Shown piece by piece: positions 5,480-28,823 of a stretch of DNA of 32,000 nt. The notes under the pieces are model-generated. The model saw only the letters and a list, made by a program, of their open reading frames with translations, was not told the DNA's origin and did no database searches. The position numbers were made by a program, and so were the translations under genes. This DNA is from Chlamydiota bacterium (GTDB lineage: Bacteria; Auribacterota; JACPWU01). Each line of letters opens with the position of its first letter. The stretch's first letter is position 1. Where the stretch lies: contig JACPWU010000058.1 of NCBI GenBank assembly GCA_016196885.1, positions 1 through 32,000 of the forward strand. The letters are read 5' to 3'.

Positions 5480-6719
5480 AAAACATCCCTTTCTAGACGC
5501 CTTAAGAATCCACGATGTACGGCTCTTCATCGGTTCTACCGCCTTTTTTACCCTGGCGAGTCGTGCTTTACTCGTCGTCATCGGTTTTCAAATTTATCGG
5601 CTGACGCACAATCCCCGGGCGCTGGGCTGGCTGGGACTGGTCGAGGCGATCCCCGCCATTTCTCTTGTTTTTTTCGGAGGCTATGTTGCGGATTATTTCA
5701 ACCGCCGAAAAATTCTTCTCATCACCCGGGCTGTCTCGTGTCTTTGCGCCATTTTTCTAGCGTTCCTCTCGTGGAAAGATCATCAAACCTGTTTGATCGG
5801 GTTGTACCTCGTCATTTTTATCGCTGGAGTCGCACGTGGATTTGCGGATCCGGCGAATACCGCTTTTGAATCCCAGGTGGTTCCAAAAAATCTCACTGTG
5901 AATGCAGCGTCGTGGATCAGCAGCACTTGGGTGAGTTGTTCTGTACTGGGTCCTGCCGCAATCGGTTTCATTTTTGATGCCTGGGGGGCCAAGGGATCCT
6001 ATCTCATCATTGCATTGGGTTTTGTTCTTTCTTGGATTTGCATGTTCATGATTCCTCTGAAAATTCAAGCCATTCCTCAACAAAGGGAATCTGTGTTAAA
6101 GGGCATTCGGGTAGGATGGCATTTTGTCTTGAAACATCCCTCTCTCTTGGCGGCAATGGCGCTCGATTTATTTGCAGTTCTCTTTGGGGGAGCGATTGCA
6201 CTTTTACCTATTTATGCGGATGATATTCTTCATGTTGGGGCCAAGGGTTTGGGACTTTTGAACGCCTCTCCCTCTTTGGGTGCATTGATGATAAGCCTGA
6301 TGGCCACCCGTTATCCCCCGATTCACAGGGCCGGTCGCAATCTTCTCTTGGCCGTTTGTGGATTCGGAATCAGCATTGTCGTTTTCGCGTTTTCAAAACA
6401 TTTTTGGCTTTCGATGACGGCTCTATTTTTAAGCGGAACCTTTGATGGTGTGAGCGTGGTGATTCGCCGTTCCATGATCCGGCTCTTGTCACCGGATCAT
6501 TTGCGCGGGCGCATCGCCTCGGTCGGCTGGGTCTTCATTTGCGCGTCGAACGAATTAGGCGCCTTTGAAAGCGGGATGTTGGCCTCTTGGATCGGAACCC
6601 TTCCCTGCGTGGCCGTGGGTGGTGTGATCACATTGGGAGTGGTGGCCCTTACGGCTACCTTTGCGAAGCAGCTCCGTGTTTTAAGCTTTGATTCTCGTAC
6701 GATGGAGCGTGTGATTTAA
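5451..6719 (+). CDS. MFS transporter
   Basis: 422 aa, about 12 hydrophobic segments. GGYVADYFNRRKILL loop motif between TM2 and TM3. Overlaps the trm112-like gene by 29 nt. Confidence 0.85.
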   Translation: MRLKKEVALKKHPFLDALRIHDVRLFIGSTAFFTLASRALLVVIGFQIYRLTHNPRALGWLGLVEAIPAISLVFFGGYVADYFNRRKILLITRAVSCLCAIFLAFLSWKDHQTCLIGLYLVIFIAGVARGFADPANTAFESQVVPKNLTVNAASWISSTWVSCSVLGPAAIGFIFDAWGAKGSYLIIALGFVLSWICMFMIPLKIQAIPQQRESVLKGIRVGWHFVLKHPSLLAAMALDLFAVLFGGAIALLPIYADDILHVGAKGLGLLNASPSLGALMISLMATRYPPIHRAGRNLLLAVCGFGISIVVFAFSKHFWLSMTALFLSGTFDGVSVVIRRSMIRLLSPDHLRGRIASVGWVFICASNELGAFESGMLASWIGTLPCVAVGGVITLGVVALTATFAKQLRVLSFDSRTMERVI

Positions 6720-7760
6720 AAGCTTCGCAAAGTTTCGGGAAGCGCGCTTTTTCCAGAGGCCTTTTTCATAGGCATAGGCGGCTAGAATAGGCAGTGAGAG
6801 GGTCGCCTCCGAAAAAACCATTTGCTCGTGAACTGTGCTGACTTTGCCCCAAGAGCTGGCTTCTTTAAGCGTCGAAGAGGAACAGGCGCCGTCGCGGACG
6901 TCGGCAACGGTTATTTGCACCGCATATTTATGAACTGGAACTTCTTTGCCTAGGACTTCTGCACAGACAACGGTGTCTTGAGAAAAGTTCTTTGGGACAC
7001 CGCCCCCAATCATGAGAAGTCCTGAATCATGGCTCTTCAATTTAATTTGAGTGAGTTCGGAAAAATCTGCAATGGAATCAATGCTCATGTGTTTCTTCGG
7101 ATTTCTGGTTTGGTGGAGTACCAATCCAAAGCCTGCAGAAGAATCGCTGAATGCAGGACAGAAAATGGGGACCTGGTACTCGTAAGCCGTCTGGACCAAT
7201 GAATTTTTCTTCTTGGAATTTTTCTTTAGCCATTTTCCCATTTCCCAAATGAAGGCCCTGGAAGAATAGGGGCGGGGCTCTAGTGAATCAGCCATTTCTG
7301 AAATGGTTTTATCGCAGGCCTGTAACTCTTCTTCATCAATAAAGGTATCGTAAATGCGGTCAATGTAGAGGCTTCTCAAGAGGCTGTCGTCAATAAAAGG
7401 GGTTCCCTTATAATGTTTGAAGCCGAGGGCCTCAAAAAAATCCATGTCCACAATGGAGGCTCCGGTGGCCACAATGACATCCACCATGTTGTTTTTGACC
7501 ATGTCCACATAGACATCCATGCAGCCAGCCGCGCTCGTACTGCCGGCCAGTGTCAGCCACACGGAACAGTTTTCATCTGCAAGCATCATGTTGTAAATGT
7601 CGGCTGCTCGCGCTAAATCCCGAGCAGAAAAAGACATTTTTCGATAGGAATCTACCAGGGATGAGACCTTGAGTTTCTTGATATCAATGTGCTCAATGGG
7701 GACTTTCAGCAATTCTCTTTTTGTCATTTTCATAGTTGGCTCATTTAAATAATGCGACAC
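6681..7760 (-). CDS. Deoxyhypusine synthase family protein (DHS-like / homospermidine-synthase-like)
   Basis: 359 aa. ...WLTLAGSTSAAGCMDVYVDMVKNNMVDVIVATGASIVDMDFFEALGFKHYKG... and ...LMIGGGVPKNF... are DHS hallmarks. The 7760 start is a GTG; ATG 7733 or 7727 (MKMTKRELL) are equally possible. Confidence 0.85.
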   Translation of the reverse strand: MSHYLNEPTMKMTKRELLKVPIEHIDIKKLKVSSLVDSYRKMSFSARDLARAADIYNMMLADENCSVWLTLAGSTSAAGCMDVYVDMVKNNMVDVIVATGASIVDMDFFEALGFKHYKGTPFIDDSLLRSLYIDRIYDTFIDEEELQACDKTISEMADSLEPRPYSSRAFIWEMGKWLKKNSKKKNSLVQTAYEYQVPIFCPAFSDSSAGFGLVLHQTRNPKKHMSIDSIADFSELTQIKLKSHDSGLLMIGGGVPKNFSQDTVVCAEVLGKEVPVHKYAVQITVADVRDGACSSSTLKEASSWGKVSTVHEQMVFSEATLSLPILAAYAYEKGLWKKRASRNFAKLLNHTLHRTRIKA

Positions 7761-19927: not shown

Positions 19928-20368
19928 ATGTCTAAAATTTTTGTCATCCATGGCCCCAATCTGGCGCTTCTCGGAGAGCGAGAGCCGGAAATTTACGGCC
20001 ACGTTTCTTTGAAGGCCATTAATGAGGCCATGAAAAAAAAGGCGCAAGACTTGAACTTTCAGATTGATTTTTTTCAATCGGATCATGAAGGAGAAATTGT
20101 TTCTAAAATTGGGAGCCTTATAAAATTAGGGATTGATTATTTAATCATCAACCCTGCAGCCTACACCCATACCAGTGTCGCGATTCGGGATGCGATTGGC
20201 GCAGTGAAAATTCCTACGATTGAAGTTCATCTTTCCAATGTTTATGCCCGTGAAGAATTCCGCCATAAGTCTTTGATCGCCCCTGTAGCTGTGGGGCAGA
20301 TCTCCGGCTTTGGAGTTCAAAGTTATATTTTGGCCATGGAGGCGATTGCGACGCTCGGGTTGAAATAG
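19928..20368 (+). CDS. aroQ: Type II 3-dehydroquinate dehydratase
   Basis: MSKIFVIHGPNLALLGEREPEIYG...INPAAYTHTSVAIRDA...EVHLSNV, 146 aa. Confidence 0.95.
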   Translation: MSKIFVIHGPNLALLGEREPEIYGHVSLKAINEAMKKKAQDLNFQIDFFQSDHEGEIVSKIGSLIKLGIDYLIINPAAYTHTSVAIRDAIGAVKIPTIEVHLSNVYAREEFRHKSLIAPVAVGQISGFGVQSYILAMEAIATLGLK

Positions 20369-20562
20369 TGACAAAGCGAATACGGCGGTTTCTGAAATTA
20401 TTCTGTGGTTGGTCTCTTCTTGCTATTGGAATAGTCGGTTTATTCCTTCCCTTTCTTCAAGGGATTCTCATGATCGTGAGTGGTTTGGCACTCTTAGCGA
20501 CAGAATACCCTTGGGCAAAGGGCTGGCTTGAGGGAATCAAAAAGAAGATAAAGAAAAAATGA
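20368..20562 (+). CDS. Small two-TM membrane protein, PGPGW-family-like
   Basis: 64 aa. ...LLAIGIVGLFLPFLQGILMIVSGLALLATEYPWAKGWL... GTG start sharing one base with the aroQ stop. Its stop overlaps the next start (ATGA). Confidence 0.55.
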   Translation: MTKRIRRFLKLFCGWSLLAIGIVGLFLPFLQGILMIVSGLALLATEYPWAKGWLEGIKKKIKKK

Positions 20563-21602
20563 AGACGAAAGTCATCGCCGTTCTAGGGATGCATCGAAGC
20601 GGAACTTCTGTGATTACTCGTGCCCTGAATTTAGGGGGGGTCTATTTGGGTGAGCCAGGTGATCTCATGGAAGGTGCTTCAGATAATTCCGAAGGTTTTT
20701 GGGAACACAAGGGGATCGTAGATCTTAACGAGCGGATTTTACAGGCCCTCAAAAGGACATGGGACAGTGTTCTCCCGCTTCCTCACGAGTGGCATCTTTC
20801 GAAAGACTTTCAACCGTTCAAATCCGAGATGGTGAGACTGATCAAAAGTTGTTTTTTGAATCGTCCCCTTTGGGGATGGAAGGATCCACGAACCTCTTTA
20901 ACCTTTGATCTTTGGAAAGAGGCCCTTCGTGAATTGGGGATGGACTGTGTCTCTCTCGTTATGATTCGAAATCCTTTAGACGTCGCAAAATCTCTTTTGA
21001 AACGGAATGGTTTTTCTCAAGGTAAATCATTTGGGATGTGGCTTCATTACAACCTTTCTATTCTTCAAACGACCCAAGGGCTTCAGCGGACCTTTCTCTT
21101 CTATGATCTATTTCTGGAAAATTGGGAAAAGGAAATGAAAAATTGTTTTTCAAAAATGGGTCTAGATTGGCCCCGTGAAAACAATGTTTTGAATGAAGAA
21201 ATGAATGCGTTGATTCGCCTGGACCTTCGCCACAGCCAATCAAAATTTGAGGAGCTCAAAAAAAGAGAGGCCTCTCTTCCCCTTGTCACTGTATATGAAT
21301 TTCTTGAAATGCTGAGTCAGTCCTCTCAAGACTCCGTGTTTCAAATGAAAATAGAAACAGGGTGTAAAGACTTCTTGAACTATGCCCGTTATTTTCAAGA
21401 AGATATAGAATCTCTCTGGAAAGAAAAACAGCAATGTCAGATACTTGGCCAACATCTTTTGAAAGTAGAAAAGGCATTGTTGGAAGCGCAACAGGCACTC
21501 ATCCTTCAACAAAAGGAGCTCCAGGCATTTTTGAATTCCCGCAGTTGGAAACTCACAGCACCTCTGAGGATGTTCTCTCGCCTCTTAAGGTTTAGGAAAT
21601 GA
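20559..21602 (+). CDS. Sulfotransferase family protein with C-terminal coiled-coil tail
   Basis: 5'-PSB-like VLGMHRSGTS, 3'-PB-like RNPLDVAKSL, WKDPRTSL. The C-terminal part of about 70 aa is heptad-like (LLKVEKALLEAQQALILQQKELQAFL), followed by SRSWKLTAPLR. Confidence 0.8.
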   Translation: MKTKVIAVLGMHRSGTSVITRALNLGGVYLGEPGDLMEGASDNSEGFWEHKGIVDLNERILQALKRTWDSVLPLPHEWHLSKDFQPFKSEMVRLIKSCFLNRPLWGWKDPRTSLTFDLWKEALRELGMDCVSLVMIRNPLDVAKSLLKRNGFSQGKSFGMWLHYNLSILQTTQGLQRTFLFYDLFLENWEKEMKNCFSKMGLDWPRENNVLNEEMNALIRLDLRHSQSKFEELKKREASLPLVTVYEFLEMLSQSSQDSVFQMKIETGCKDFLNYARYFQEDIESLWKEKQQCQILGQHLLKVEKALLEAQQALILQQKELQAFLNSRSWKLTAPLRMFSRLLRFRK

Positions 21603-21666
21603 CGCGAAGTGTCATTTCTGAGACAAAAGTATCCCTTTTTTCTTTAGACTCCTGTTGAAACGAAAG

Positions 21667-21675
21667 TGCTATAAT
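21667..21675 (+). promoter_or_regulatory. Extended -10 promoter element
   Basis: TGcTATAAT (TG 21667-68, TATAAT 21670-75). No convincing -35. Confidence 0.35.
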
Positions 21676-21733
21676 TATCCTAACCTGATAAGAGAGATAA
21701 AATAAGAGAAGCAGAGATGAGACCTTTTTTCTT

Positions 21734-21810
21734 GAGTCCACAGAGGGTCGTCTAAAATCCACGGGACAGTGGTTTCGTGGACTATGGACTATCGACTGTG
21801 GACTTTTTTT
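21734..21810 (+). terminator. Long hairpin with T7 run, 22 nt upstream of the eRF1-like gene start
   Basis: AGTCCACAG (21735-43) pairs with CTGTGGACT (21796-804), followed by TTTTTTT to 21810. Inner TCCACG/CGTGGA (21758-63 / 21775-80). The 3' arm is built from heptamers TGGACTA TGGACTA TCGACTG TGGACTT (21778-21805). Confidence 0.5.
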
Positions 21811-21832
21811 AAAGTAAATAGGAGATGATGCC

Positions 21833-22969
21833 ATGATCAGCTTTCGACAAATAGAAGAATTGATCAACATGAAAACAGATTCTCTCCCCTTGGTCAGTTT
21901 TTATTTAGGCATGGAGGGGAGCCGTTATTCAAAAAAGAATTGCGAAAATGCCTTGAAGGATTTGATGAAAGAAAGAGAGAAGGATATTCAGAATTTTGAA
22001 AAGAATAAAAATCATAAACTCTCTTTAGAAAAAGATTTTGAAAAAATTCGTCAATATGTGAAAAATGAATTGGATTGGAAAGGGAAAAAAGGTGTGGCCA
22101 TTTTTTCTTCTTCCTCTATGAATTTCTGGCAAGTTTATTTTTTGCCCAGTTCTGTGAAAAATACTTTGGTCATTGATCATACACCTTACATTCGTCCGTT
22201 GATTGCCCTTTTTGATGAATATCGCCGATTTTGCATGGTCTTGGTGGATAAATCCAAGGCGAGAATTTTTGAGGTGTTCTTGGGCGAAATTGAAGAACAT
22301 ACAGAGTTTACAGATGCCTTGCCTCGAAAAGCCAAAGCAGGGGGCTGGAAGGGATATGAAGAAAATCGTATTCAGCGGCATTTAACAGAAGAGGTACGGA
22401 AGCATTTTAAAAAGGTTGCGGATTCACTTACGGATCTTTTTAAGTTGCATCATTTTGATTGGTTGATTTTAGGAGGGCATCGGGCAGAGTTTCCTGAGTT
22501 TGAGAAAGAGCTACGTCCTTTTTTAGAGGACAGAATTGTGGCTCGTTTGGAAATGGATTTACGCGCTTCTCAGGAAAATATTTTGGAGAAGGCGCTGAAG
22601 GTTGAGAAGGAGATTTCCAAAGAGCATGGCGAGACTTCTGTGAAAAATCTTTTAGAACTCACAGGAGAAAGGCAAGCCGTGACAGGCGTTCTCGGAACTT
22701 TAACAGCTTTTCGAAGAGGGCAGGTTCACAGCCTTGTGGTCAGCCGCGATTATCAGGTGCCTGGAATGCGGTGTTTGAAATGCGGTTATTTGGATCAAGA
22801 ACATAAGAATTGTCCTCAGTGTAAAGAGCCTTTACAGGCGATTCCTGATTTGGTGGACGATTTGGTAGAGGCAGCCGTCACTCAAGGGTGTAAGGTTGAG
22901 TATGTTTCTGGAAATGGTCGGGATCGTCAGTGGGGTGGGATCGGGGCGATTTTGAGGTTTAAAGGTTGA
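21833..22969 (+). CDS. Bacterial archaeo-eukaryotic release factor (eRF1/Pelota-like, baeRF) family protein with a Zn-ribbon insert
   Basis: 378 aa. M-domain-like LPRKAKAGGWKGYEENRIQRH..VRKHFKKVAD compares with eRF1 LPKKHGRGGQSALRFARLR..VRKVAE. C-terminal WGGIGAILRF compares with eRF1 GGIGGILRY. CLKCGYLDQEHKNCPQC. AGGAGA SD at 21820-25. Confidence 0.8.
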   Translation: MISFRQIEELINMKTDSLPLVSFYLGMEGSRYSKKNCENALKDLMKEREKDIQNFEKNKNHKLSLEKDFEKIRQYVKNELDWKGKKGVAIFSSSSMNFWQVYFLPSSVKNTLVIDHTPYIRPLIALFDEYRRFCMVLVDKSKARIFEVFLGEIEEHTEFTDALPRKAKAGGWKGYEENRIQRHLTEEVRKHFKKVADSLTDLFKLHHFDWLILGGHRAEFPEFEKELRPFLEDRIVARLEMDLRASQENILEKALKVEKEISKEHGETSVKNLLELTGERQAVTGVLGTLTAFRRGQVHSLVVSRDYQVPGMRCLKCGYLDQEHKNCPQCKEPLQAIPDLVDDLVEAAVTQGCKVEYVSGNGRDRQWGGIGAILRFKG

Positions 22970-22981
22970 AGGATTACAAGT

Positions 22982-23098
22982 ACAGGACGGTTTCATTTAG
23001 AGTTTTGAATTTGAGTTTTAGAATTTGTTTCGGATTTCGAATTTCGTGCTTCGGATTTGGTATTTTAATTTGATCATTGTGATATAATGCCGTCCTGT
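22982..23098. repeat. Inverted-repeat-bracketed simple-sequence tract (GAATTT/GGATTT words, 7-nt phase)
   Basis: ACAGGACGG (22982-90) pairs with CCGTCCTGT (23090-98). Interior includes TTTCGGA TTTCGAA TTTCGTG CTTCGGA TTTGGTA (23028-62), preceded by TTGAATT TGAGTTT TAGAATT. Confidence 0.5.
23080..23088 (+). promoter_or_regulatory. Extended -10 promoter for the CBS-korAB-CBS operon
   Basis: TGaTATAAT (TATAAT 23083-88). The ORF-track ATG at 23087 lies inside this box. Confidence 0.4.
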
Positions 23099-23122
23099 TT
23101 ATTAAGAGAGGTATGTCAAGAT

Positions 23123-23602
23123 ATGCCTACATCAAAGCCGGTGGAAGTATTGCTGAAAGAAAAGAAAATTTATGAGATTGTGAATCCAAGGCTTGTCCAG
23201 GCTGGGCCGGATATTTCTATCAAAGAGGCCATTCGTTTGATGCAGGAGCGTCATGCGGGTTATATCGTGATTGCGAAGGATCAAAAAGTGGTGGGTCTTT
23301 TTGCGGAAAATGAAGTGGTGTTAAAAATTTTAGAAAATAACGTGGATTGGGATCAACCGGTGAGTTTGTTCATGAATTCGAGTCCTGTGACTTTGAATAT
23401 CAAAGATCCTGTGGGGAAGGCGATTGATTTGATGGGACATGGGAATTTTTATCATATCCCGCTGGTAGATGAAAATAATCATTTGATGAATGTTTTATCT
23501 GTTCGTACCCTCATTCGTTTCTTGTCTGAATTCTACCCGACAGAGGTCTATAACTTACCGCCCAAGCACGATCAGATTATACTGACACAAGAAGGGGGGT
23601 AA
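23123..23602 (+). CDS. CBS-domain pair protein
   Basis: Start taken at the ATG at 23123 (MPTSKPVEV...), GAGAGG 11 nt upstream. Two CBS repeats (...HAGYIVIAKDQKVVGLFAENEVV..., ...NFYHIPLVDENNHLMNVLSVRTLI...). Confidence 0.85.
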   Translation: MPTSKPVEVLLKEKKIYEIVNPRLVQAGPDISIKEAIRLMQERHAGYIVIAKDQKVVGLFAENEVVLKILENNVDWDQPVSLFMNSSPVTLNIKDPVGKAIDLMGHGNFYHIPLVDENNHLMNVLSVRTLIRFLSEFYPTEVYNLPPKHDQIILTQEGG

Positions 23603-23610
23603 GTTTTTGT

Positions 23611-25449
23611 ATGGTTGCTGTTAAGTCCAAAACTTCTGCCAATACGATTACCATCCGTTTTGCCGGTGATTCAGGAGATGGGATGCAGCTCACCGGGGAT
23701 CAATTCACCGATACCACGGCTGTGATGGGAAATGATTTTGCTACTTTTCCAGATTATCCTGCTGAAATTCGTGCGCCTCAAGGAACCTTGCCGGGTGTCT
23801 CCAGCTTTCAAATCCAATTTTCTGATAACATCATTTTTACACCTGGAGACCAAGCCGATGTCTTGGTCGCGATGAATCCAGCCGCCTTGAAGGTGAATTT
23901 GAAGACGGTTAAAAAGGGCGGGCTGATTATTGTAAATGAAAATTCCTTTGGCGAAGATCATTTGAAAAAAGCAGCTTGGAAGACGAACCCCTTGGCAGAC
24001 AATACGCTGAAAGATTTTCAGGTGCTTAAAGTTGCTCTCACCGATTTGACACGCAATGCTTTAAAGGATCATCCCTTGAAGGGTCAAGAAGTGGATCGCT
24101 GTAAAAATTTCTTTGCCTTGGGGATGATGTTTTGGATGTATGACCGAAGGTTTGAACATACAGTCGCGTGGATTGAAAAACGCTTTGCAAAAAGACCTGA
24201 GATGGTTGCTGCTAACATTGCGACATTGAAGGCGGGATTCAATTTTGCGGATATTACAGAGACTTTGCAGACCCAAATTCATGTGCCCAAGGCCCAATTA
24301 GAACCGGGTGTCTATCGGAAGATTACTGGAAATGAGGCGACTGCGATTGGATTTGTGACGGCGGCCCAGCTTGCAGGAAAAACTTTGTTTTATGGTTCGT
24401 ATCCGATTACGCCCGCGAGTTCTATTTTGCATGAGTTGGCCAAGCACAAAGTTTATGGGGTGAAAACTTTTCAGGCGGAAGACGAGATTGCAGCCATAGG
24501 CGCGGCGATTGGAGCTTCTTTTGGAGGACAGTTAGGAATTACGGGAACGAGCGGCCCGGGTGTTTGCCTGAAATCAGAGGCCTTGAATTTAGCGGTGATG
24601 ACAGAGCTTCCCCTGGTGGTGATTGATGTTCAGCGGGCGGGTCCTAGCACGGGAATGCCGACCAAGACGGAACAGGGAGATTTACTCCAAGTAATGTACG
24701 GCCGTAACGGCGATTCTCCTGTTGCTGTCATTGCACCCAAGACTCCTTCTGACTGTTTTCAAATGGCTCTTGAAGCCGTTCGTTTGGCGGTGAAATACAT
24801 GACGCCAGTGATCTTTTTATCCGAAGGTTATTTGGCTGAGGCGGCCGAGCCTTGGAAACTTCCAGAAATAGAAAAGTTGCCCAAAATCGAAATTCGTCAT
24901 CCCAAAGAAGAAAAAGATCCGTTTTTACCTTACTCAAGAAATCCTGAAACACTGGCCCGTCCATGGGCTGTTCCGGGCACTCCGGGTCTGGGGCATCGGA
25001 TCGGAGGATTGTCCAAAGCTGATTTAACGGGCAATGTGAGCTATGACCCTGACAACAATCAGAAAATGATTCTTTTGCGCCGAGAAAAAGTCGCGAAAAT
25101 CGCCAATGATATTCCAGACCTGACAGTAGAAGGACCCGGATCAGGAAAATTATTGGTGTTGGGATGGGGTGGGACTTTCGGAGCCATTTATCAAGCAATT
25201 TCTGATTTGACTCAGGAGGGTGTCAAGGTTTCTCATGCCCATTTGAATTATTTAAATCCCTTTCCCAAAAATTTGAAGAATGTGTTATCTCGTTTTGAAA
25301 AAATTTTAGTTCCAGAATTAAACATGGGACAGTTGATTATGATTTTACGTGATCATTTTCCGGGTGTGAATTTTTTAGGTCTCAATAAAATGCAAGGGCA
25401 TCCGTTTTCGGTTTTTGAAATGAAAAATAAAATTAGGGAATTACTATGA
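23611..25449 (+). CDS. korA: 2-oxoacid:ferredoxin oxidoreductase, fused gamma-alpha subunit (2-oxoglutarate type likely)
   Basis: 612 aa. N-terminal gamma-like domain (IRFAGDSGDGMQLTG...), then alpha domain (GNEATAIGFVTAA...YPITPASSILHEL...). Confidence 0.88.
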   Translation: MVAVKSKTSANTITIRFAGDSGDGMQLTGDQFTDTTAVMGNDFATFPDYPAEIRAPQGTLPGVSSFQIQFSDNIIFTPGDQADVLVAMNPAALKVNLKTVKKGGLIIVNENSFGEDHLKKAAWKTNPLADNTLKDFQVLKVALTDLTRNALKDHPLKGQEVDRCKNFFALGMMFWMYDRRFEHTVAWIEKRFAKRPEMVAANIATLKAGFNFADITETLQTQIHVPKAQLEPGVYRKITGNEATAIGFVTAAQLAGKTLFYGSYPITPASSILHELAKHKVYGVKTFQAEDEIAAIGAAIGASFGGQLGITGTSGPGVCLKSEALNLAVMTELPLVVIDVQRAGPSTGMPTKTEQGDLLQVMYGRNGDSPVAVIAPKTPSDCFQMALEAVRLAVKYMTPVIFLSEGYLAEAAEPWKLPEIEKLPKIEIRHPKEEKDPFLPYSRNPETLARPWAVPGTPGLGHRIGGLSKADLTGNVSYDPDNNQKMILLRREKVAKIANDIPDLTVEGPGSGKLLVLGWGGTFGAIYQAISDLTQEGVKVSHAHLNYLNPFPKNLKNVLSRFEKILVPELNMGQLIMILRDHFPGVNFLGLNKMQGHPFSVFEMKNKIRELL

Positions 25450-26468
25450 GTGAAGCTGTTTTGAAATTACCATACACCAAAGAAGATTTTGTTTCAGGTC
25501 AAGAGGTGAGGTGGTGTCCAGGCTGTGGAGATTATTCTATTCTCGCCACCATGCAAAGAACCTTGTCCAAATTTGATTTGCCTATTGAAAAATATGTTTT
25601 TGTTTCAGGAATTGGTTGTTCGAGCCGGTTTCCTTATTACATGAATACGTATGGATTTCATACCATTCATGGACGGGCGCCTACGATTGCGACGGGCTTG
25701 AGATGCGTGAACCCTGAGCTTTCGATTTGGGTGATTACAGGAGATGGGGATGGCCTTAGCATTGGAGGGAATCATTTGATTCACTGCATGCGCCGAAATG
25801 TGGATATTAATATTTTGCTTGTGAACAATCGGATTTATGGATTGACGAAAGGGCAGTATTCTCCGACTTCTGAAAAAGGAAAAATCACCAAGTCTTCTCC
25901 CTATGGAACGATTGAGCAGCCGATCAATGCACTTTGTGTTGCCATTGCCTCAGAGGCCACTTTTATTGCGAGAACCCTGGATACTGATCCCACCCACATG
26001 AGTTATATTTTGGAGCGGGCGGCCAAGCATAAAGGTGTTTCCTTTGTCGAGATTTATCAAAATTGTTTGATCTTTAATGACAAGGCCTTTGTCCCAGTGA
26101 CCGGTCGAGAGACGCGTGAGGACCGCATGGTTTATTTAAAAGATGGACAGCCTCTCGTATTCGGTAAGAAAAAAGACAAGGCCATTCGATTGAAGGGGCT
26201 TTATCCTGAAGAGGTGAATTACACAGCGGGGGGAGACACGAAAGATCTCTTGATTCACAATGAGAAGGATGAGAATCCGCATTATGCCTATTTTTTGACT
26301 CAAATGGAACATCCTGAAATGCCGGTTCCTTTTGGTGTTTTTCGAGCCATCGAAAAACCGACCTATGATGAAATGTTGGATGAGCAGATTCGGCAAGCTC
26401 AAGTGAAAGGGAAAGGGGATTTGAAAAGCTTGATTTATGGGCCTAACACATGGAAGGTGGGATCATGA
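25446..26468 (+). CDS. korB: 2-oxoacid:ferredoxin oxidoreductase, beta (TPP-binding) subunit
   Basis: 340 aa. WCPGCGDYSIL, GIGCSSRFPYY, ITGDGDGLSIGGNHLIH, VNNRIYGLTKGQ. ATGA overlap with korA. Confidence 0.9.
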   Translation: MSEAVLKLPYTKEDFVSGQEVRWCPGCGDYSILATMQRTLSKFDLPIEKYVFVSGIGCSSRFPYYMNTYGFHTIHGRAPTIATGLRCVNPELSIWVITGDGDGLSIGGNHLIHCMRRNVDINILLVNNRIYGLTKGQYSPTSEKGKITKSSPYGTIEQPINALCVAIASEATFIARTLDTDPTHMSYILERAAKHKGVSFVEIYQNCLIFNDKAFVPVTGRETREDRMVYLKDGQPLVFGKKKDKAIRLKGLYPEEVNYTAGGDTKDLLIHNEKDENPHYAYFLTQMEHPEMPVPFGVFRAIEKPTYDEMLDEQIRQAQVKGKGDLKSLIYGPNTWKVGS

Positions 26469-26995
26469 ATACCATTCAATGTCCAGCCTGTGGTTCTCAA
26501 AATCTAGCAGGGGAAGACAGGTGTGAGCAGTGCTTTCATTCGCTTATGCAAAGAGATTTGCCTCGAGCGAAAAAGGATGATGCGATTCAATCTGTGATGA
26601 TGACAGCTCCCATTTTAGAGCTTCTCACGGGAAAAGATTTGCTGGTCGCAAGTACAACCGATACTGTTCAAAAAATTGTAAAGATTTTTCAGAAGGAAAA
26701 TAAAAATTGCATCTTGGTTTATAAGAAGAAAAAAATGGTTGGTATTATCAGCTTTCGGGACCTTTTGTTAAAAGTCACTGGGAAAATTGAAGATCTCTCC
26801 AAAGTGAAAGCCGAAGCTATCATGACCCCCAACCCCGAATATGTTCGGGCCGAAGACCCCATTGCCTATGCCGTAAATAAAATGGCCATGGGCGGCTTTA
26901 GACATCTTCCAGTTTTGGCTCGAGATGGGACCCCCTTGAGCATTATCATGATCAAGGATGTATTGAAATACCTCTCTAAGAGAAAAGAGAAGTAG
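26465..26995 (+). CDS. Zinc-ribbon plus CBS-domain pair protein
   Basis: Start at the ATG at 26465, ATGA overlap with the korB stop. MNTIQCPACGSQNLAGEDRCEQCFHSL (CxxC..CxxC), then two CBS repeats (...NCILVYKKKKMVGIISFRDLL..., ...FRHLPVLARDGTPLSIIMIKDVL...). Confidence 0.85.
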   Translation: MNTIQCPACGSQNLAGEDRCEQCFHSLMQRDLPRAKKDDAIQSVMMTAPILELLTGKDLLVASTTDTVQKIVKIFQKENKNCILVYKKKKMVGIISFRDLLLKVTGKIEDLSKVKAEAIMTPNPEYVRAEDPIAYAVNKMAMGGFRHLPVLARDGTPLSIIMIKDVLKYLSKRKEK

Positions 26996-27087: not shown

Positions 27088-28227
27088 ATGTATAAGAGAA
27101 TATTAACCTTAGATAAGTTTTCTCATGAGAGTTCTTTCTTGTGGGGACCCCGTCAAACTGGGAAGAGTACTCTGTTAGAGCAGCTTTTTCCTGATGCGCC
27201 TTATTATGATCTTTTACTTTCAGATGTGGTCACTCGTTTCCAAGTGAAACCCTCGCTTTTAAGGGAAGAGCTTTTATCCAGTCCCCCTCACGGGCCAGTC
27301 ATTCTCGATGAAATCCAGAAGGTTCCAGAACTTTTAGATGAAATCCAGTGGCTGATGACTAAGAAAAATATCCATTTTATTCTGTGTGGATCTAGTGCAA
27401 GAAAACTGAAAAGGACGGGAGCTAATCTTTTGGGAGGCAGGGCCATTCGGTATCAACTTTATCCTCTCGTGTTTCCTGAAATCTCTGATTTTGATCTCAT
27501 AAAGGCTTTGAATCATGGTTTGCTCCCACGTCATTATCTTTCTAAAGAGCCACAGGAACTCGTCGAGTCCTATATTGCCGATTACCTTCAACATGAAATC
27601 GCTGCGGAGTCTCTTGTACGTAATCTCCCTTCCTTTCACCGCTTTCTTGAAGTGGCGGCTTTCAGCAATGGTGAGATTCCTGTTTTTAGTAACATTGCGT
27701 CAGATTGTGGTGTGAGCTCTCCCACCGTGAGGGAGTATTTTGAAATTCTACAGGATACTCTGATAGGCTCTTTTTGTCCGGCCTATCTGAAACGGCTTAA
27801 GCGTCGTTTAATTCAGTCACCTAAATTTTATTATTTTGATGTGGGGATCGCAAATTTTCTTCTTAAAAGAGGTTTTATTCAATATGGATCGGAATCTTTT
27901 GGGAGAGCTTTTGAACATTTTATCTACCAAGAAGTAATAGCTCATTCGCAATACTCTCGCAAGAAGTACCCTGTCAGTTATTGGAGAACTTCTTCAGAAT
28001 ACGAAGTGGACTTTATTCTGGGGGACGCCATGATTGCACTAGAGGTGAAAGGAGTCCCGCTGGTCAATTCAAAACACCTTAAAGGTCTTCAGATGTTTTG
28101 CGAAGATTATGCAGTGAAAAAAGCTATAGTGGTTTCGCTGGATCCCCGGCCTAGAAAAATGGGTGACATTGAAATTCTTCCCTGGAAAAAATTTCTTGAA
28201 GCGCTTTGGTCTGGAGAACTTATTTAA
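27088..28227 (+). CDS. AAA-type ATPase with DUF4143-like C-terminal domain
   Basis: 379 aa. Walker A FLWGPRQTGKSTLL, Walker B PVILDEIQ. C-terminal ...YWRTSSEYEVDFIL... restriction-endonuclease-like tail typical of the AAA_14/DUF4143 family. Confidence 0.85.
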   Translation: MYKRILTLDKFSHESSFLWGPRQTGKSTLLEQLFPDAPYYDLLLSDVVTRFQVKPSLLREELLSSPPHGPVILDEIQKVPELLDEIQWLMTKKNIHFILCGSSARKLKRTGANLLGGRAIRYQLYPLVFPEISDFDLIKALNHGLLPRHYLSKEPQELVESYIADYLQHEIAAESLVRNLPSFHRFLEVAAFSNGEIPVFSNIASDCGVSSPTVREYFEILQDTLIGSFCPAYLKRLKRRLIQSPKFYYFDVGIANFLLKRGFIQYGSESFGRAFEHFIYQEVIAHSQYSRKKYPVSYWRTSSEYEVDFILGDAMIALEVKGVPLVNSKHLKGLQMFCEDYAVKKAIVVSLDPRPRKMGDIEILPWKKFLEALWSGELI

Positions 28228-28376: not shown

Positions 28377-28823
28377 ATGAAAACTCAAACGGATATGCCA
28401 AATCGGTTTACTTCATTTCTTGAGGATAGAGGTCTTAAGTTGACGTACGAGCGGAGATATCTTTTTGAAAAAGTCTCGCGTTTGAAAGGACACTTTAATG
28501 CAGATTCTCTTTATGAGTCTCTTCAGAGAGACAAGGCTCGCATTGCTCGGGGGACGGTTTACCGGACCATTCCGCTTCTTTTGGAGAGTGGGGTCATTCA
28601 GAAGTCGGTAGGTGAGGGAAAAAGAGAGTTTTTCGAGAGCCAGACGGGAAAAGAGCATCACGATCATCTGGTATGTTTGAAATGTCATAAAGTGATTGAG
28701 TTTCACTCGGATGAGATTGAGAAGTTTCAAGATCAGATTTGTGAAAAATATGACTTTGAAATGGTTTTTCATGATCACCGAATGTATGGACACTGCGGGA
28801 GTTGTAAGGAAAAAAAGAAGTAG
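28377..28823 (+). CDS. Fur-family metalloregulator (Fur, Zur and PerR cannot be told apart by eye)
   Basis: 148 aa. RGTVYRTIPLL recognition helix region, HHDHLVCLKCHKVIEF, and a C-terminal CGSC (two CxxC pairs). Confidence 0.9.
   Translation: MKTQTDMPNRFTSFLEDRGLKLTYERRYLFEKVSRLKGHFNADSLYESLQRDKARIARGTVYRTIPLLLESGVIQKSVGEGKREFFESQTGKEHHDHLVCLKCHKVIEFHSDEIEKFQDQICEKYDFEMVFHDHRMYGHCGSCKEKKK

What the first reader, a model, noticed from the sequence alone, without database searches (positions are those of the whole stretch)
21833..22969. Full-length eRF1/Pelota homologue in a bacterium with GGQ replaced by GGW and a Zn-ribbon insert
Seen:
- The 378-aa ORF parallels archaeo-eukaryotic class-I release factor along its M and C domains. 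LPRKAKAGGWKGYEENRIQRH...VRKHFKKVAD compares with eRF1 LPKKHGRGGQSALRFARLR...VRKVAE, quoted from memory of human eRF1.
- C-terminal WGGIGAILRF compares with GGIGGILRY.
- The catalytic Gln position is Trp.
- No NIKS-like stop-codon motif is visible in the N domain.
- The C domain carries CLKCGYLDQEHKNCPQC.

Established:
- Bacterial termination uses RF1/RF2, which have an unrelated fold.
- aeRF1-like proteins in bacteria (baeRF families) have been catalogued computationally but are essentially uncharacterised.
- Pelota/Dom34 is the GGQ-less paralogue that acts in ribosome rescue.

Inference: this is a non-hydrolytic ribosomal A-site binder, for rescue, quality control or a conflict-related role. 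It is expressed from its own regulated leader.
Basis: partly seen in the sequence, partly recalled or inferred. Interest (0 to 1): 0.62.

Follow-up and report, generated by a model that had tools for sequence, protein, structure and literature searches.

The report
Balon-type ribosome hibernation factor homologue
This gene from an uncultured Chlamydiae bacterium encodes a relative of the archaeal/eukaryotic release factor that most likely belongs to the recently characterised "Balon" family, which parks in the ribosome's A site during stress; it is an unusually ancestral-looking variant, not a new kind of factor.

Summary
A 378-aa ORF at 21833-22969 (+) carries GGW aligned on the GGQ of aRF1/eRF1, lacks NIKS and YxCxxxF, has a CxxC...CxxC knuckle pair in its C domain and ends in GGIGAILRF. 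It is a solid member of Pfam baeRF_family10 (123 bits). Msmeg1130, a "Balon" ribosome hibernation factor solved on the ribosome in 2024, scores 124.6 bits on the same Pfam family. It is also the best structural match to the predicted model (TM 0.85 over the full length, against about 0.55 for eRF1 and at most 0.43 for Pelota). GGW is not a decayed singleton: of 240 relatives, 125 have Trp and 34 Phe at that position, and only 6 have Gln. The Zn ribbon is not a novel insert: 219/240 keep all four Cys, archaeal aRF1 has it at the same site, and Balon's EF-Tu-contacting insertion occupies that site. The most likely function is a stress-induced, mRNA-independent A-site hibernation factor (confidence about 0.6). 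No partner GTPase, HPF or defence context was found. The "regulated leader" is a structured 5' region that is unique to this locus and unproven. Side observation: some canonical archaeal aRF1s carry GG[W/F]SQ instead of GGQ.

The parts
21833..22969 (+). 378-aa ORF including its stop codon: aeRF1-fold protein, Pfam baeRF_family10, Balon-type
21833..22222 (+). N domain (aa 1-130). No NIKS and no YxCxxxF. Conserved S22-x-Y24-L25 and P118-Y-I-R-P-L123. The beta1-alpha1 loop (aa 25-36, nt 21905-21940) occupies the position of the 'HP' decoding-centre loop of P. urativorans Balon and has the same length, but no His-Pro.
22223..22618 (+). M domain (aa 131-262), RNase-H-like core. The Pfam baeRF_family10 match covers aa 118-258.
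22313..22354 (+). Tip loop of the M domain (aa 161-174), containing G170-G171-W172 (nt 22340-22348) at the position of GGQ. It is followed by the conserved basic helix R179-I-Q-R182-H183. The loop has lower model confidence (pLDDT about 62).
22619..22966 (+). C domain (aa 263-378), Pelota/L7Ae-like, ending in GGIGAILRF (nt 22934-22960)
22757..22843 (+). Four-Cys zinc-ribbon module (aa 309-337; Cys314, 317, 327, 330) inserted in the C domain. It sits at the site of the aRF1 ZnR and of the EF-Tu-binding insertion of Balon/Msmeg1130.
   Evidence: PMC6514570; PMC10901736 supplementary Fig. 5 legend
21603..21832 (+). 230-nt upstream intergenic region. Features: extended -10-like TGCTATAAT (21667-21675); long hairpin (21734-21805) followed by U7 (21804-21810); SD AGGAGA (21820-21825), predicted to pair with UCCUA (21678-21682). 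Function unproven and not conserved in homologous loci.

Best explanation
The gene encodes a Balon-type ribosome hibernation factor of the Msmeg1130-like branch (Pfam baeRF_family10).

Proposed mechanism, inferred from the solved homologues:
1. Under stress or starvation the protein enters the ribosomal A site without reading mRNA.
2. Its N domain, which lacks NIKS and YxCxxxF, contacts the decoding centre through the extended beta1-alpha1 loop region.
3. Its M-domain tip reaches the peptidyl-transferase-centre region. There the conserved Gly-Gly-Trp loop and the basic R-x-x-R-H helix contact 23S rRNA (for example by stacking on A2602) without hydrolysing peptidyl-tRNA.
4. Its C domain faces the GTPase-associated centre, where Balon recruits EF-Tu(GDP). 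Here that surface is an intact four-Cys zinc ribbon instead of Balon's degenerate beta-hairpin.
5. The net effect is reversible silencing and protection of ribosomes.

Shown: the fold, the family membership, the motif conservation and the positional equivalence of the elements. Inferred: ribosome binding, lack of hydrolysis, any EF-Tu involvement, and stress induction.
For: - Pfam baeRF_family10: 123.2 bits against a cutoff of 27.1. Msmeg1130 Balon scores 124.6 bits on the same model.
- PDB sequence and profile searches rank Msmeg1130 first: phmmer 8e-8, family profile 1.2e-35. That is ahead of aRF1 (2e-27), eRF1 (1e-18), Rv2629 (7e-18), Pelota (2e-10) and P. urativorans Balon (1.9e-10).
- The AF2 model is confident (pLDDT 89.4). 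Foldseek's top hit is ribosome-bound Msmeg1130 (8v9l_z) at TM 0.85 and rmsd 3.3 A over the full length. P. urativorans Balon gives 0.72, Rv2629 0.73, eRF1 about 0.56 and Pelota at most 0.43.
- The three structural hallmarks listed for Balons (PMC10901736, supplementary Fig. 5 legend) are matched in position. There is no NIKS, and the N-domain loop has the same length as in P. urativorans Balon and is 3 residues longer than in aRF1. There is no GGQ. There is an insertion at the C-domain site.
- R182 (209/240) and H183 are conserved in the helix after the loop. This fits the LSU-rRNA contact proposed in PMC6514570.
- The 52%-identical homologue P0010 has HSP20 immediately upstream, a neighbour listed as typical for Balon genes.
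- No partner GTPase or ABCE1-like gene is present in the window or in the 9 distinct homologue neighbourhoods examined. This is consistent with use of housekeeping EF-Tu, or of no partner at all.
- A divergent Synechocystis Balon also binds hibernating ribosomes, using different contact residues (10.64898/2026.07.03.736309).
Against: - Sequence identity to any solved Balon is only about 16-18%.
- Scores are far below the cutoffs of NCBI's three Balon equivalog models: 79 vs 480, 78.5 vs 330 and 52.7 vs 320. They are about equal to the score on aRF1 (67.5), so at the sequence level the protein is roughly equidistant from Balons and from aRF1.
- The Gly-Gly pair of GGQ is retained and the following aromatic residue is conserved. 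Characterised Balons have poorly conserved or lasso-like loops instead. This suggests a specific PTC interaction that could differ from Balon's.
- Canonical NIKS-bearing archaeal aRF1s exist with GG[W/F]SQ, so an aromatic residue at the Gln position need not abolish release activity.
- No HPF/RaiA neighbour, the commonest Balon neighbour, was seen in any examined locus.
- Nothing here tests ribosome binding.
Confidence: 0.6

Rival explanations
1. It is a catalytically competent, stop-codon-independent peptidyl-tRNA hydrolase (a rescue-type release factor). The retained Gly-Gly backbone positions the loop in the PTC, and the residue after GG contributes mainly its main-chain amide, so Trp is tolerated.
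For: - GG is retained and GG+aromatic is conserved: GGW 96, GGF 29 and AGW 12 of 240.
- Burroughs & Aravind singled out baeRF family 10 as potentially active.
- Canonical aRF1s with NIKS carry KGGWSQ (8 clusters) or KGGFSQ (7 clusters).
- In vitro, GGQ mutations reduce efficiency or alter nucleophile selectivity and do not always abolish release (PMC9589212; also my own recollection of Shaw & Green 2007).
Against: - The window protein and its close clade have GGW-KGY-EE with a 3-residue insertion and no Gln anywhere in the loop. They lack the 'SQ' of the GG[W/F]SQ forms.
- The stop-codon elements are missing.
- The closest solved relative, Msmeg1130 in the same Pfam family, is a hibernation factor that lacks release motifs.
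- The predicted global conformation matches ribosome-bound Balon much better than accommodated eRF1.
Confidence: 0.12
2. It is a Pelota/Dom34-like non-catalytic rescue factor that recognises stalled ribosomes and promotes subunit splitting together with a GTPase or ATPase partner.
For: It shares the aeRF1 fold, lacks the catalytic Gln, and matches Pelota structures significantly (Foldseek E about 1e-9 to 1e-11; profile E 1.8e-10).
Against: - Pelota is a much poorer match than Balon or aRF1 (TM at most 0.43 against 0.85).
- NCBIfam's pelota model gives no hit.
- No Hbs1-, aEF1alpha- or ABCE1-like partner gene is adjacent in the window or in the 9 distinct homologue neighbourhoods.
- To my knowledge bacteria lack ABCE1.
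Confidence: 0.1
3. It is a conflict-related element (phage defence, or a toxin/antitoxin component) that shuts down translation on infection.
For: - Burroughs & Aravind propose a conflict-driven origin for the baeRF-1 clade.
- One distant homologue (L088) lies about 1.2 kb from a PemK-toxin gene.
- A PADLOC candidate-system ATPase (PDC-S01) lies about 4 kb downstream in the window.
Against: - No PADLOC hit for the protein or its immediate neighbours.
- The neighbourhoods are housekeeping or metabolic and vary between lineages.
- Among the closest relatives the gene sits in a conserved syntenic block (PGPGW protein upstream, CBS-korA downstream), not on a mobile island.
Confidence: 0.05
4. It is a decaying, non-functional remnant of a horizontally acquired aRF1.
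For: None beyond the loss of GGQ and NIKS.
Against: - The ORF is intact.
- 101 homologues were found at E<1e-5, and 2,419 cluster representatives at E<=1e-30.
- Conservation is strong for GGW, the four Cys, PYIRPL and GGIGAILRF.
- The predicted fold is confident.
Confidence: 0.01

Closest known systems
Msmeg1130 (MSMEG_1130) Balon, Mycobacterium smegmatis ribosome hibernation factor (PDB 8v9j/8v9l)
   Same: - Same Pfam family (baeRF_family10) with nearly equal scores.
- Best sequence, profile and fold match (TM 0.85 over the full length).
- Three-domain aeRF1 architecture, with no NIKS and no GGQ.
- An insertion of similar length at the same C-domain site.
- Shared SLY, W99-type and P-x-I-x-P-L N-domain motifs and an ...A-x-LR[WFY] C-terminus.
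   Different: - About 17% identity, far below NCBI's equivalog cutoff (79 vs 480 bits).
- Msmeg1130's loop reads ...ERAGQMREQ..., against ...KAGGWKGYEEN... here.
- Its C-domain insertion has no cysteines (a degenerate ZnR), whereas the window protein has an intact CxxC...CxxC.
- The residue before the invariant Pro is His (IHPL) in Msmeg1130 and Arg (IRPL) here.
Balon of Psychrobacter urativorans (PDB 8rd8/8rdv/8rdw) and Rv2629 of M. tuberculosis (8v9k; Pfam baeRF_family2)
   Same: aeRF1 fold (TM 0.72-0.73), absence of NIKS and GGQ, an N-domain beta1-alpha1 loop of the same length, and a C-domain insertion. Rv2629 also has G-W in its loop (TAGWNGY).
   Different: - Different Pfam baeRF family for Rv2629 (family 2). 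P. urativorans Balon was not scanned against Pfam here.
- P. urativorans Balon has the HP dipeptide, a lasso loop, a bL27 trap and a short beta-hairpin. None of these is recognisable at the sequence level here.
- No zinc ribbon.
Archaeal aRF1 (e.g. Halobacterium salinarum 4af1) / eukaryotic eRF1
   Same: Same three-domain fold. GG of the GGQ loop retained at the identical position, the following basic helix, a Zn-ribbon at the same C-domain site (aRF1), and the GGIGxILR[YF] C-terminus.
   Different: - Gln replaced by Trp.
- NIKS and YxCxxxF absent.
- NCBIfam aRF1 score of 67.5 against a cutoff of 234.7.
- Bacterial host that presumably uses RF1/RF2.
- Predicted domain arrangement resembles ribosome-bound Balon, not eRF1.
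Pelota/Dom34
   Same: aeRF1-superfamily member without a catalytic Gln; non-hydrolytic A-site ligand.
   Different: Much weaker sequence and structure similarity. Pelota has a different N domain (with loop A), no ZnR and no GG loop, and it works with Hbs1/aEF1alpha and ABCE1.
VLRF-1 families (Vms1/ANKZF1, acVLRF1) with the GGxSQ motif
   Same: Weak Pfam acVLRF1 match (28.9 bits). Many members of the window's wider family read GG-W-S-Q, which fits GGxSQ.
   Different: The window protein itself lacks the S-Q (it reads GGWKGY). It keeps both flanking domains, which VLRF-1 families lack or replace.

Membership tests
aeRF1 superfamily (eRF1/aRF1/Pelota/baeRF fold) | Three-domain architecture: N domain, RNase-H-like M domain with a tip loop, and a Pelota/L7Ae-like C domain | tested here: met
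   AF2 model pLDDT 89.4; full-length Foldseek matches to Balon, aRF1 and eRF1 with E from 5e-24 to 1e-15; TIGR03676 E=9e-19 over residues 5-377
Canonical class-I release factor aRF1/eRF1 | GGQ motif at the M-domain tip | tested here: not met
   GGW; W172 aligns with the Gln
Canonical class-I release factor aRF1/eRF1 | Stop-codon recognition motifs NIKS and YxCxxxF in the N domain | tested here: not met
   The aligned segments read ...FEKNKNHKLS... and ...VIDHTPYIRPL...
Canonical class-I release factor aRF1/eRF1 | NCBIfam TIGR03676 score at or above the curated cutoff (234.7 bits) | tested here: not met
   67.5 bits
Pelota/Dom34 | Match to the pelota model (TIGR00111), and closest fold being Pelota | tested here: not met
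   No TIGR00111 hit at E<=10; Foldseek TM at most 0.43 against 0.85 for Balon
Pfam PF18854 baeRF_family10 | Score above the gathering threshold (27.1 bits) | tested here: met
   123.2 bits, E=1.3e-35, profile positions 1-142 of 143. All 101 homologues carry PF18854.
Balon ribosome hibernation factors (structural definition, Helena-Bueno et al. 2024, supplementary Fig. 5) | [quoted passage not shown] | tested here: inconclusive
   NIKS is absent. The beta1-alpha1 loop (aa 25-36) aligns without gaps to the P. urativorans loop ...KTHREHPANDQD... and is 3 residues longer than in aRF1. The His-Pro dipeptide is absent, as it is in Msmeg1130.
Balon ribosome hibernation factors (structural definition) | (ii) No GGQ motif in the M domain | tested here: met
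   GGW. There is no Gln in loop residues 161-178. The Gly-Gly pair is retained, unlike in characterised Balons.
Balon ribosome hibernation factors (structural definition) | (iii) Characteristic insertion in the EF-Tu-binding C domain | tested here: met
   aa 309-337 align with the Msmeg1130 insertion YVGTVGADGSLYADGEIAPHSHAATKDS. Here it is an intact 4-Cys Zn ribbon.
Balon ribosome hibernation factors (functional definition) | Binds the ribosomal A site independently of mRNA, inhibits translation, and associates with EF-Tu(GDP) on the ribosome | not testable with these tools
   Requires pelleting, in vitro translation or cryo-EM
NCBIfam Balon equivalogs (NF052288 MSMEG_1130, NF052287 AOC03_06830, NF052289 Rv2629 families) | Score at or above the curated cutoffs (480, 330, 320 bits) | tested here: not met
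   79.2, 78.5 and 52.7 bits. The protein is related to these three narrowly defined families but is not a member of any of them.
Balon ribosome hibernation factors (genomic context) | Location in stress-response operons (RaiA/HPF, Hsp20, OsmC/Y, HdeD, RtcB and others) | tested here: inconclusive
   HSP20 lies directly upstream of homologue P0010. No stress gene is adjacent in the window or in the other neighbourhoods, and HPF was seen nowhere.
Known anti-phage defence systems (PADLOC) | Match of the protein or its immediate neighbours to a defence-system model | tested here: not met
   No hits

The most novel reading that the evidence does not exclude
The GG-aromatic loop is not a dead GGQ but an alternative functional PTC-engaging motif shared by a large Zn-ribbon-bearing bacterial/archaeal clade and by some canonical DPANN aRF1s (GG[W/F]SQ). 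On this reading the window protein would be an aeRF1-type factor that actively engages the bacterial peptidyl-transferase centre. It would do so either as a stop-codon-independent peptidyl-tRNA hydrolase or as a Trp-plug inhibitor with a Zn-dependent (metal- or redox-sensing) interface at the GTPase centre. Either mechanism would be distinct from the Balons characterised so far.
Probability: 0.12. Interest if true: 0.8.

Novelty: new variant of a known kind. Interest (0 to 1): 0.38.

Why it matters
- It extends the Balon hibernation-factor family to an uncultured Chlamydiae lineage.
- It identifies a large, uncharacterised subclade that keeps two ancestral aRF1 features lost in the studied Balons: an intact Zn ribbon at the EF-Tu-facing site, and the Gly-Gly loop, here followed by a conserved Trp or Phe. 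At least 219 of the 240 closest cluster representatives keep all four Cys.
- This subclade looks like an evolutionary intermediate between release factors and hibernation factors. It is a good target for asking how a release factor was converted into a ribosome-silencing factor, and what the residue after GG actually does in the PTC.
- The side observation that some canonical archaeal aRF1s carry GG[W/F]SQ challenges the assumed universality of GGQ and deserves separate study.

Tried and rejected
- Locus search with the 60-sequence alignment failed because no stretch was conserved enough. It was redone with 16 close sequences. The species-representative collection then returned only distant bacterial relatives and many archaeal aRF1s, picked up through the shared C-terminal motif.
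- Rfam: no family in the window at gathering thresholds, and none in the leader at E<=1.
- Leader conservation: the upstream regions of the three closest available loci (L081-L083) share only a TATAAT-like box. The hairpin+U7 and the predicted anti-SD pairing are unique to the window. The hairpin arm sequence is not a repeated element in the window. The consensus scan found no sigma-70 promoter or terminator in the leader. The extended -10 was read by eye.
- CBS-domain protein as an energy-sensing partner (by analogy with archaeal HPF-CBS factors): rejected. The CBS gene is 9 bp from korA. A second CBS gene follows korB. CBS-korA also travels together in L090. The 52-59% identical homologues in L082 and L083 lack it.
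- Partner GTPase, ABCE1 or HPF: none in the 32-kb window or in the homologue neighbourhoods.
- Defence role: PADLOC negative.
- Retrieving P. urativorans Balon by phmmer with Msmeg1130 found nothing because the two are too divergent. An N-domain-only profile solved this.
- Test of whether the bacterial family is specifically derived from GG[W/F]SQ-type aRF1s: profile scores are higher for W-type (mean 160 bits) than for Q-type (143 bits), but the ranges overlap and the sample is biased, so the result is inconclusive.
- Literature: nothing on GGWSQ or GGFSQ in aRF1, and nothing on Zn-ribbon Balons, in the held library.
Full report
**Observation.** All the quoted peptide motifs are present: G170-G171-W172 within LPRKAKAGGWKGYEENRIQRH, CLKCGYLDQEHKNCPQC (Cys314/317/327/330) and the C-terminal WGGIGAILRF. 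An identical protein is deposited as a hypothetical protein of a 'Chlamydiae bacterium' MAG, GCA_016178005.1, on a 32,384-bp contig.

**Homology to the archaeo-eukaryotic release factor.**
- NCBIfam aRF1_eRF1 gives E=9e-19 over residues 5-377.
- A profile of 60 family members matches H. salinarum aRF1 (4af1) at 2e-27 and human eRF1 at about 1e-18.
- In those alignments the Trp lies exactly on the catalytic Gln. VRKHFKKVAD aligns with eRF1 VRKVAE, and GGIGAILRF with GGIGGILRY.
- NIKS and the YxCxxxF segment have no counterpart.

**What it is.**
- The strongest curated match is Pfam baeRF_family10, at 123 bits against a cutoff of 27.
- The best matches among solved structures are not release factors. 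They are 'ribosome hibernation factor Balon' chains from mycobacterial ribosome complexes.
- Balon was described in 2024 (PMC10901736). It is a distant aeRF1 homologue found in about 20% of bacteria. It occupies the A site of vacant or translating ribosomes independently of mRNA during cold shock and stationary phase. On the ribosome it associates with EF-Tu(GDP).
- I reconstructed Msmeg1130 and Rv2629 from the printed alignments and scanned them against Pfam. Msmeg1130 is itself a baeRF_family10 protein at 124.6 bits, and Rv2629 is family 2.
- An AlphaFold2 model built on the family alignment is confident, with mean pLDDT 89.4. Its best Foldseek hit in the PDB is ribosome-bound Msmeg1130, with TM 0.85 and rmsd 3.3 A over the full length. 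P. urativorans Balon and Rv2629 score 0.72-0.73, eRF1 and aRF1 about 0.5-0.56, and Pelota at most 0.43.
The closest characterised relative is a hibernation factor.

**Is GGW a decayed singleton?** No.
- The database search found 101 homologues, all carrying PF18854. They come from Chlamydiae, Omnitrophica, Nitrospirota, Anaerolineae and other MAGs.
- An exhaustive profile search found 2,419 cluster representatives at E<=1e-30.
- In 240 full-length sequences aligned to the family model, the column of the catalytic Gln holds Trp in 125, Phe in 34, Tyr in 4 and Gln in only 6. GGW (96) and GGF (29) are the commonest triplets.
- GGW extends to Acidobacteriota and Chloroflexota relatives that have lost the Zn ribbon.
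- Thermus, Meiothermus and deltaproteobacterial relatives instead have long inserted loops, similar to the 'lasso' described for Balon.
- Within the family there are several loop types: GG[W]SQ/AQ, GGFAA, and the window clade's GGW-KGY-EE. The last has a 3-residue insertion and no Gln at all.
- Burroughs & Aravind (PMC6514570) remarked that family 10 has a well-conserved Gln and might be catalytically active. That probably refers to the GGWSQ or AGQ forms and does not apply to the window protein.

**Is the Zn ribbon a novel insert?** No.
- All four Cys are kept in 219 of 240 relatives.
- H. salinarum aRF1 has Cys knuckles at the same insertion site.
- Burroughs & Aravind describe this ZnR as the ancestral state. 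In many bacterial families it has degenerated into a two-strand insert.
- That insert is the beta-loop through which Balon contacts EF-Tu domain III, with 'similar but larger insertions' in the mycobacterial homologues. The Msmeg1130 insertion aligns residue-for-residue with the window protein's ZnR but contains no Cys.
- The window protein therefore keeps two ancestral aRF1 features that the characterised Balons have lost: the ZnR and the Gly-Gly loop. It looks like an intermediate form.
- At the sequence level it is about equidistant from NCBI's three Balon equivalog models (79, 78.5 and 53 bits, all far below their cutoffs) and from aRF1 (67.5 bits).

**Balon hallmarks.** The paper lists three.
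1. No NIKS, plus an extended decoding-centre loop (the 'HP motif'). An N-domain-only profile search brought out the P. urativorans sequence. Its His-Pro lies in the loop after beta1 (...VKTHREHPANDQD...). The window protein has a loop of identical length there (LGMEGSRYSKKN), 3 residues longer than in aRF1, but without His-Pro. Msmeg1130 lacks His-Pro too. This hallmark is inconclusive.
2. No GGQ. This is met, with the caveat that GG is retained.
3. An insertion in the C domain. This is met in position, although here the insertion is an intact ZnR.

Ribosome binding itself cannot be tested with these tools.

**Context.**
- The window is otherwise made up of polysaccharide-biosynthesis genes, aroQ, a small PGPGW membrane protein, an unannotated 347-aa ORF, a CBS-korA-korB-CBS block, an AAA_14/DUF4143 ATPase and Fur.
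- No EF-Tu, HPF, GTPase or ABCE1-like gene is present.
- Among the 9 distinct homologue neighbourhoods examined, the neighbours vary widely.
- Within the closest clade there is lineage synteny: the PGPGW gene lies upstream in all five neighbourhoods of that clade (L081, L082, L083/L084, L089 and L090), and CBS-korA lies downstream in L090. This is not a functional operon.
- The one suggestive neighbour is HSP20, directly upstream of the 52%-identical P0010. The Balon paper lists HSP20 as a typical Balon neighbour.
- PADLOC finds nothing for the protein or its neighbours.

**Leader.**
- The 230-nt upstream region contains an extended -10-like TGCTATAAT (21667-21675), read by eye. The consensus scan found no promoter there.
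- A very stable long hairpin (21734-21805) is followed by U7. Folding the 161-nt stretch 21690-21850 that contains it gives an energy z-score of -3.65 against shuffled sequences.
- If transcription starts just after the -10 box, the SD is predicted to pair with UCCUA at 21678-21682, with P(unpaired) of about 0.03-0.14 for the SD core (G21821 to A21823) between 10 and 37 C, rising to 0.22 at 45 C.
- No Rfam family matches.
- The closest homologous loci share only a TATAAT-like box, not the structure.
- The gene probably has its own promoter. 'Regulated leader' remains a hypothesis. The hairpin could equally be a terminator or attenuator left over from the upstream gene.

**Mechanism.**
- The best-supported reading is that this is a Balon-type hibernation factor (confidence about 0.6). 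It would enter the A site independently of mRNA. The N-domain loop would sit at the decoding centre. The GGW loop and the conserved R-x-x-R-H helix would contact 23S rRNA near the PTC. The ZnR would face the GTPase centre, where Balon recruits EF-Tu(GDP).
- Divergent Balons use different contact residues (Synechocystis), so a lineage-specific Trp contact is plausible.
- The main rival (about 0.12) is that the retained GG loop makes it a stop-codon-independent peptidyl-tRNA hydrolase.
- That rival gains some weight from an observation made in passing. Canonical NIKS- and YxCxxxF-bearing aRF1s exist that read KGGWSQ or KGGFSQ instead of GGQ. The first found scores 449 bits on TIGR03676 in a Micrarchaeota MAG. 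There are 8 clusters of the first type and 7 of the second, against 105 GGQ-bearing sequences in the same hit list (97 caught by the first pattern and 8 by a looser one). So an aromatic residue at the Gln position is tolerated in proteins that are presumably real release factors.
- Those aRF1s keep a Gln two residues later, matching the GGxSQ pattern of VLRF-1 families. The window protein lacks that Gln.
- Pelota-like rescue (about 0.1), a conflict role (about 0.05) and a decayed remnant (about 0.01) are less well supported.

**Verdict.**
- The two 'unusual' features are family-wide. One of them, the ZnR, is ancestral.
- The protein is a new variant of a known kind: an aRF1-like, Zn-ribbon-bearing, GG-Trp form of the Balon family in an environmental Chlamydiae lineage.
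- Interest is moderate. Its main value is as a probable evolutionary intermediate and as a handle on what the residue after GG does.

Noticed in passing
L017:5926-7158 (CAZOFO010000007.1, Candidatus Micrarchaeota MAG); proteins P0245-P0252, and P0265, P0267, P0269, P0270, P0273, P0277, P0281: Canonical archaeal aRF1s carry KGGWSQ (8 clusters, 63-100% identical) or KGGFSQ (7 clusters, one labelled Aenigmatarchaeota aRF-1) in place of the supposedly universal GGQ. They score 449 bits on TIGR03676 and have NIKS and YxCxxxF. The DNA reads GGA TGG AGC CAG. The motif fits the GGxSQ pattern known from VLRF-1. Nothing about it was found in the held literature. Whether these genomes also encode a GGQ aRF1 was not checked.
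   Followed up: partly
L005 (JANQNJ010000159.1, Thermoplasmatota MAG) 6001-6879 and L010 (JAGLME010000008.1, Thermoplasmata MAG) 5764-6939: Members of the window's 'bacterial' family occur on contigs binned as archaeal. They have PYIRP[IL], GGW or GGM followed by SQ, a 4-Cys Zn ribbon and no NIKS, and score below the aRF1 cutoff. This could be the donor lineage of the bacterial clade, a back-transfer, or a binning error. The archaeal nature of the contigs was not verified.
   Followed up: partly
window 23087-23602, 23611-25449, 25446-26468, 26450-26995: A 2-oxoacid:ferredoxin oxidoreductase alpha/beta pair is flanked on both sides by stand-alone CBS-pair proteins. The upstream CBS gene ends 9 bp before korA, and the downstream one overlaps the end of korB by 19 bp. 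CBS-korA is also conserved in L090. This suggests nucleotide-sensing regulatory subunits of the oxidoreductase.
   Followed up: partly
window 6681-7760 (-): A deoxyhypusine-synthase-fold protein scores 579 bits (cutoff 500) on NCBIfam '1,9-bis(guanidino)-5-aza-nonane synthase'. This is a polyamine-type enzyme, in a Chlamydiae MAG.
   Followed up: no
window 27088-28227: An AAA_14/DUF4143 ATPase matches the PADLOC candidate defence system PDC-S01 (E=1.4e-54). It lies about 4 kb downstream of the baeRF gene, followed by a Fur-family regulator (28377-28823).
   Followed up: no
window 20368-20562; L081:4727-4906; L082:4521-4712; L083:3866-4054; L089:2857-3108; L090:2743-2928: A 64-aa PGPGW-family membrane protein lies upstream of the baeRF gene in the window and in all five neighbourhoods of the closest clade. 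Different genes have been inserted between them: a 347-aa unannotated ORF here, Rhomboid in L089 and L090, and HSP20 in L083. This is lineage synteny of unknown meaning.
   Followed up: partly
window 20559-21602: A 347-aa ORF immediately upstream of the leader has no Pfam, NCBIfam or PADLOC match. It is absent from the corresponding position in the homologous loci.
   Followed up: partly
P0018 (L087:4001-5146, on a 925-kb contig): A 37%-identical family member with the Zn ribbon reads DGGQGG, i.e. GGQ at the aligned position. It is one of only about 6 of 240 with Gln there. This is either a reversion or a retained ancestral state.
   Followed up: no
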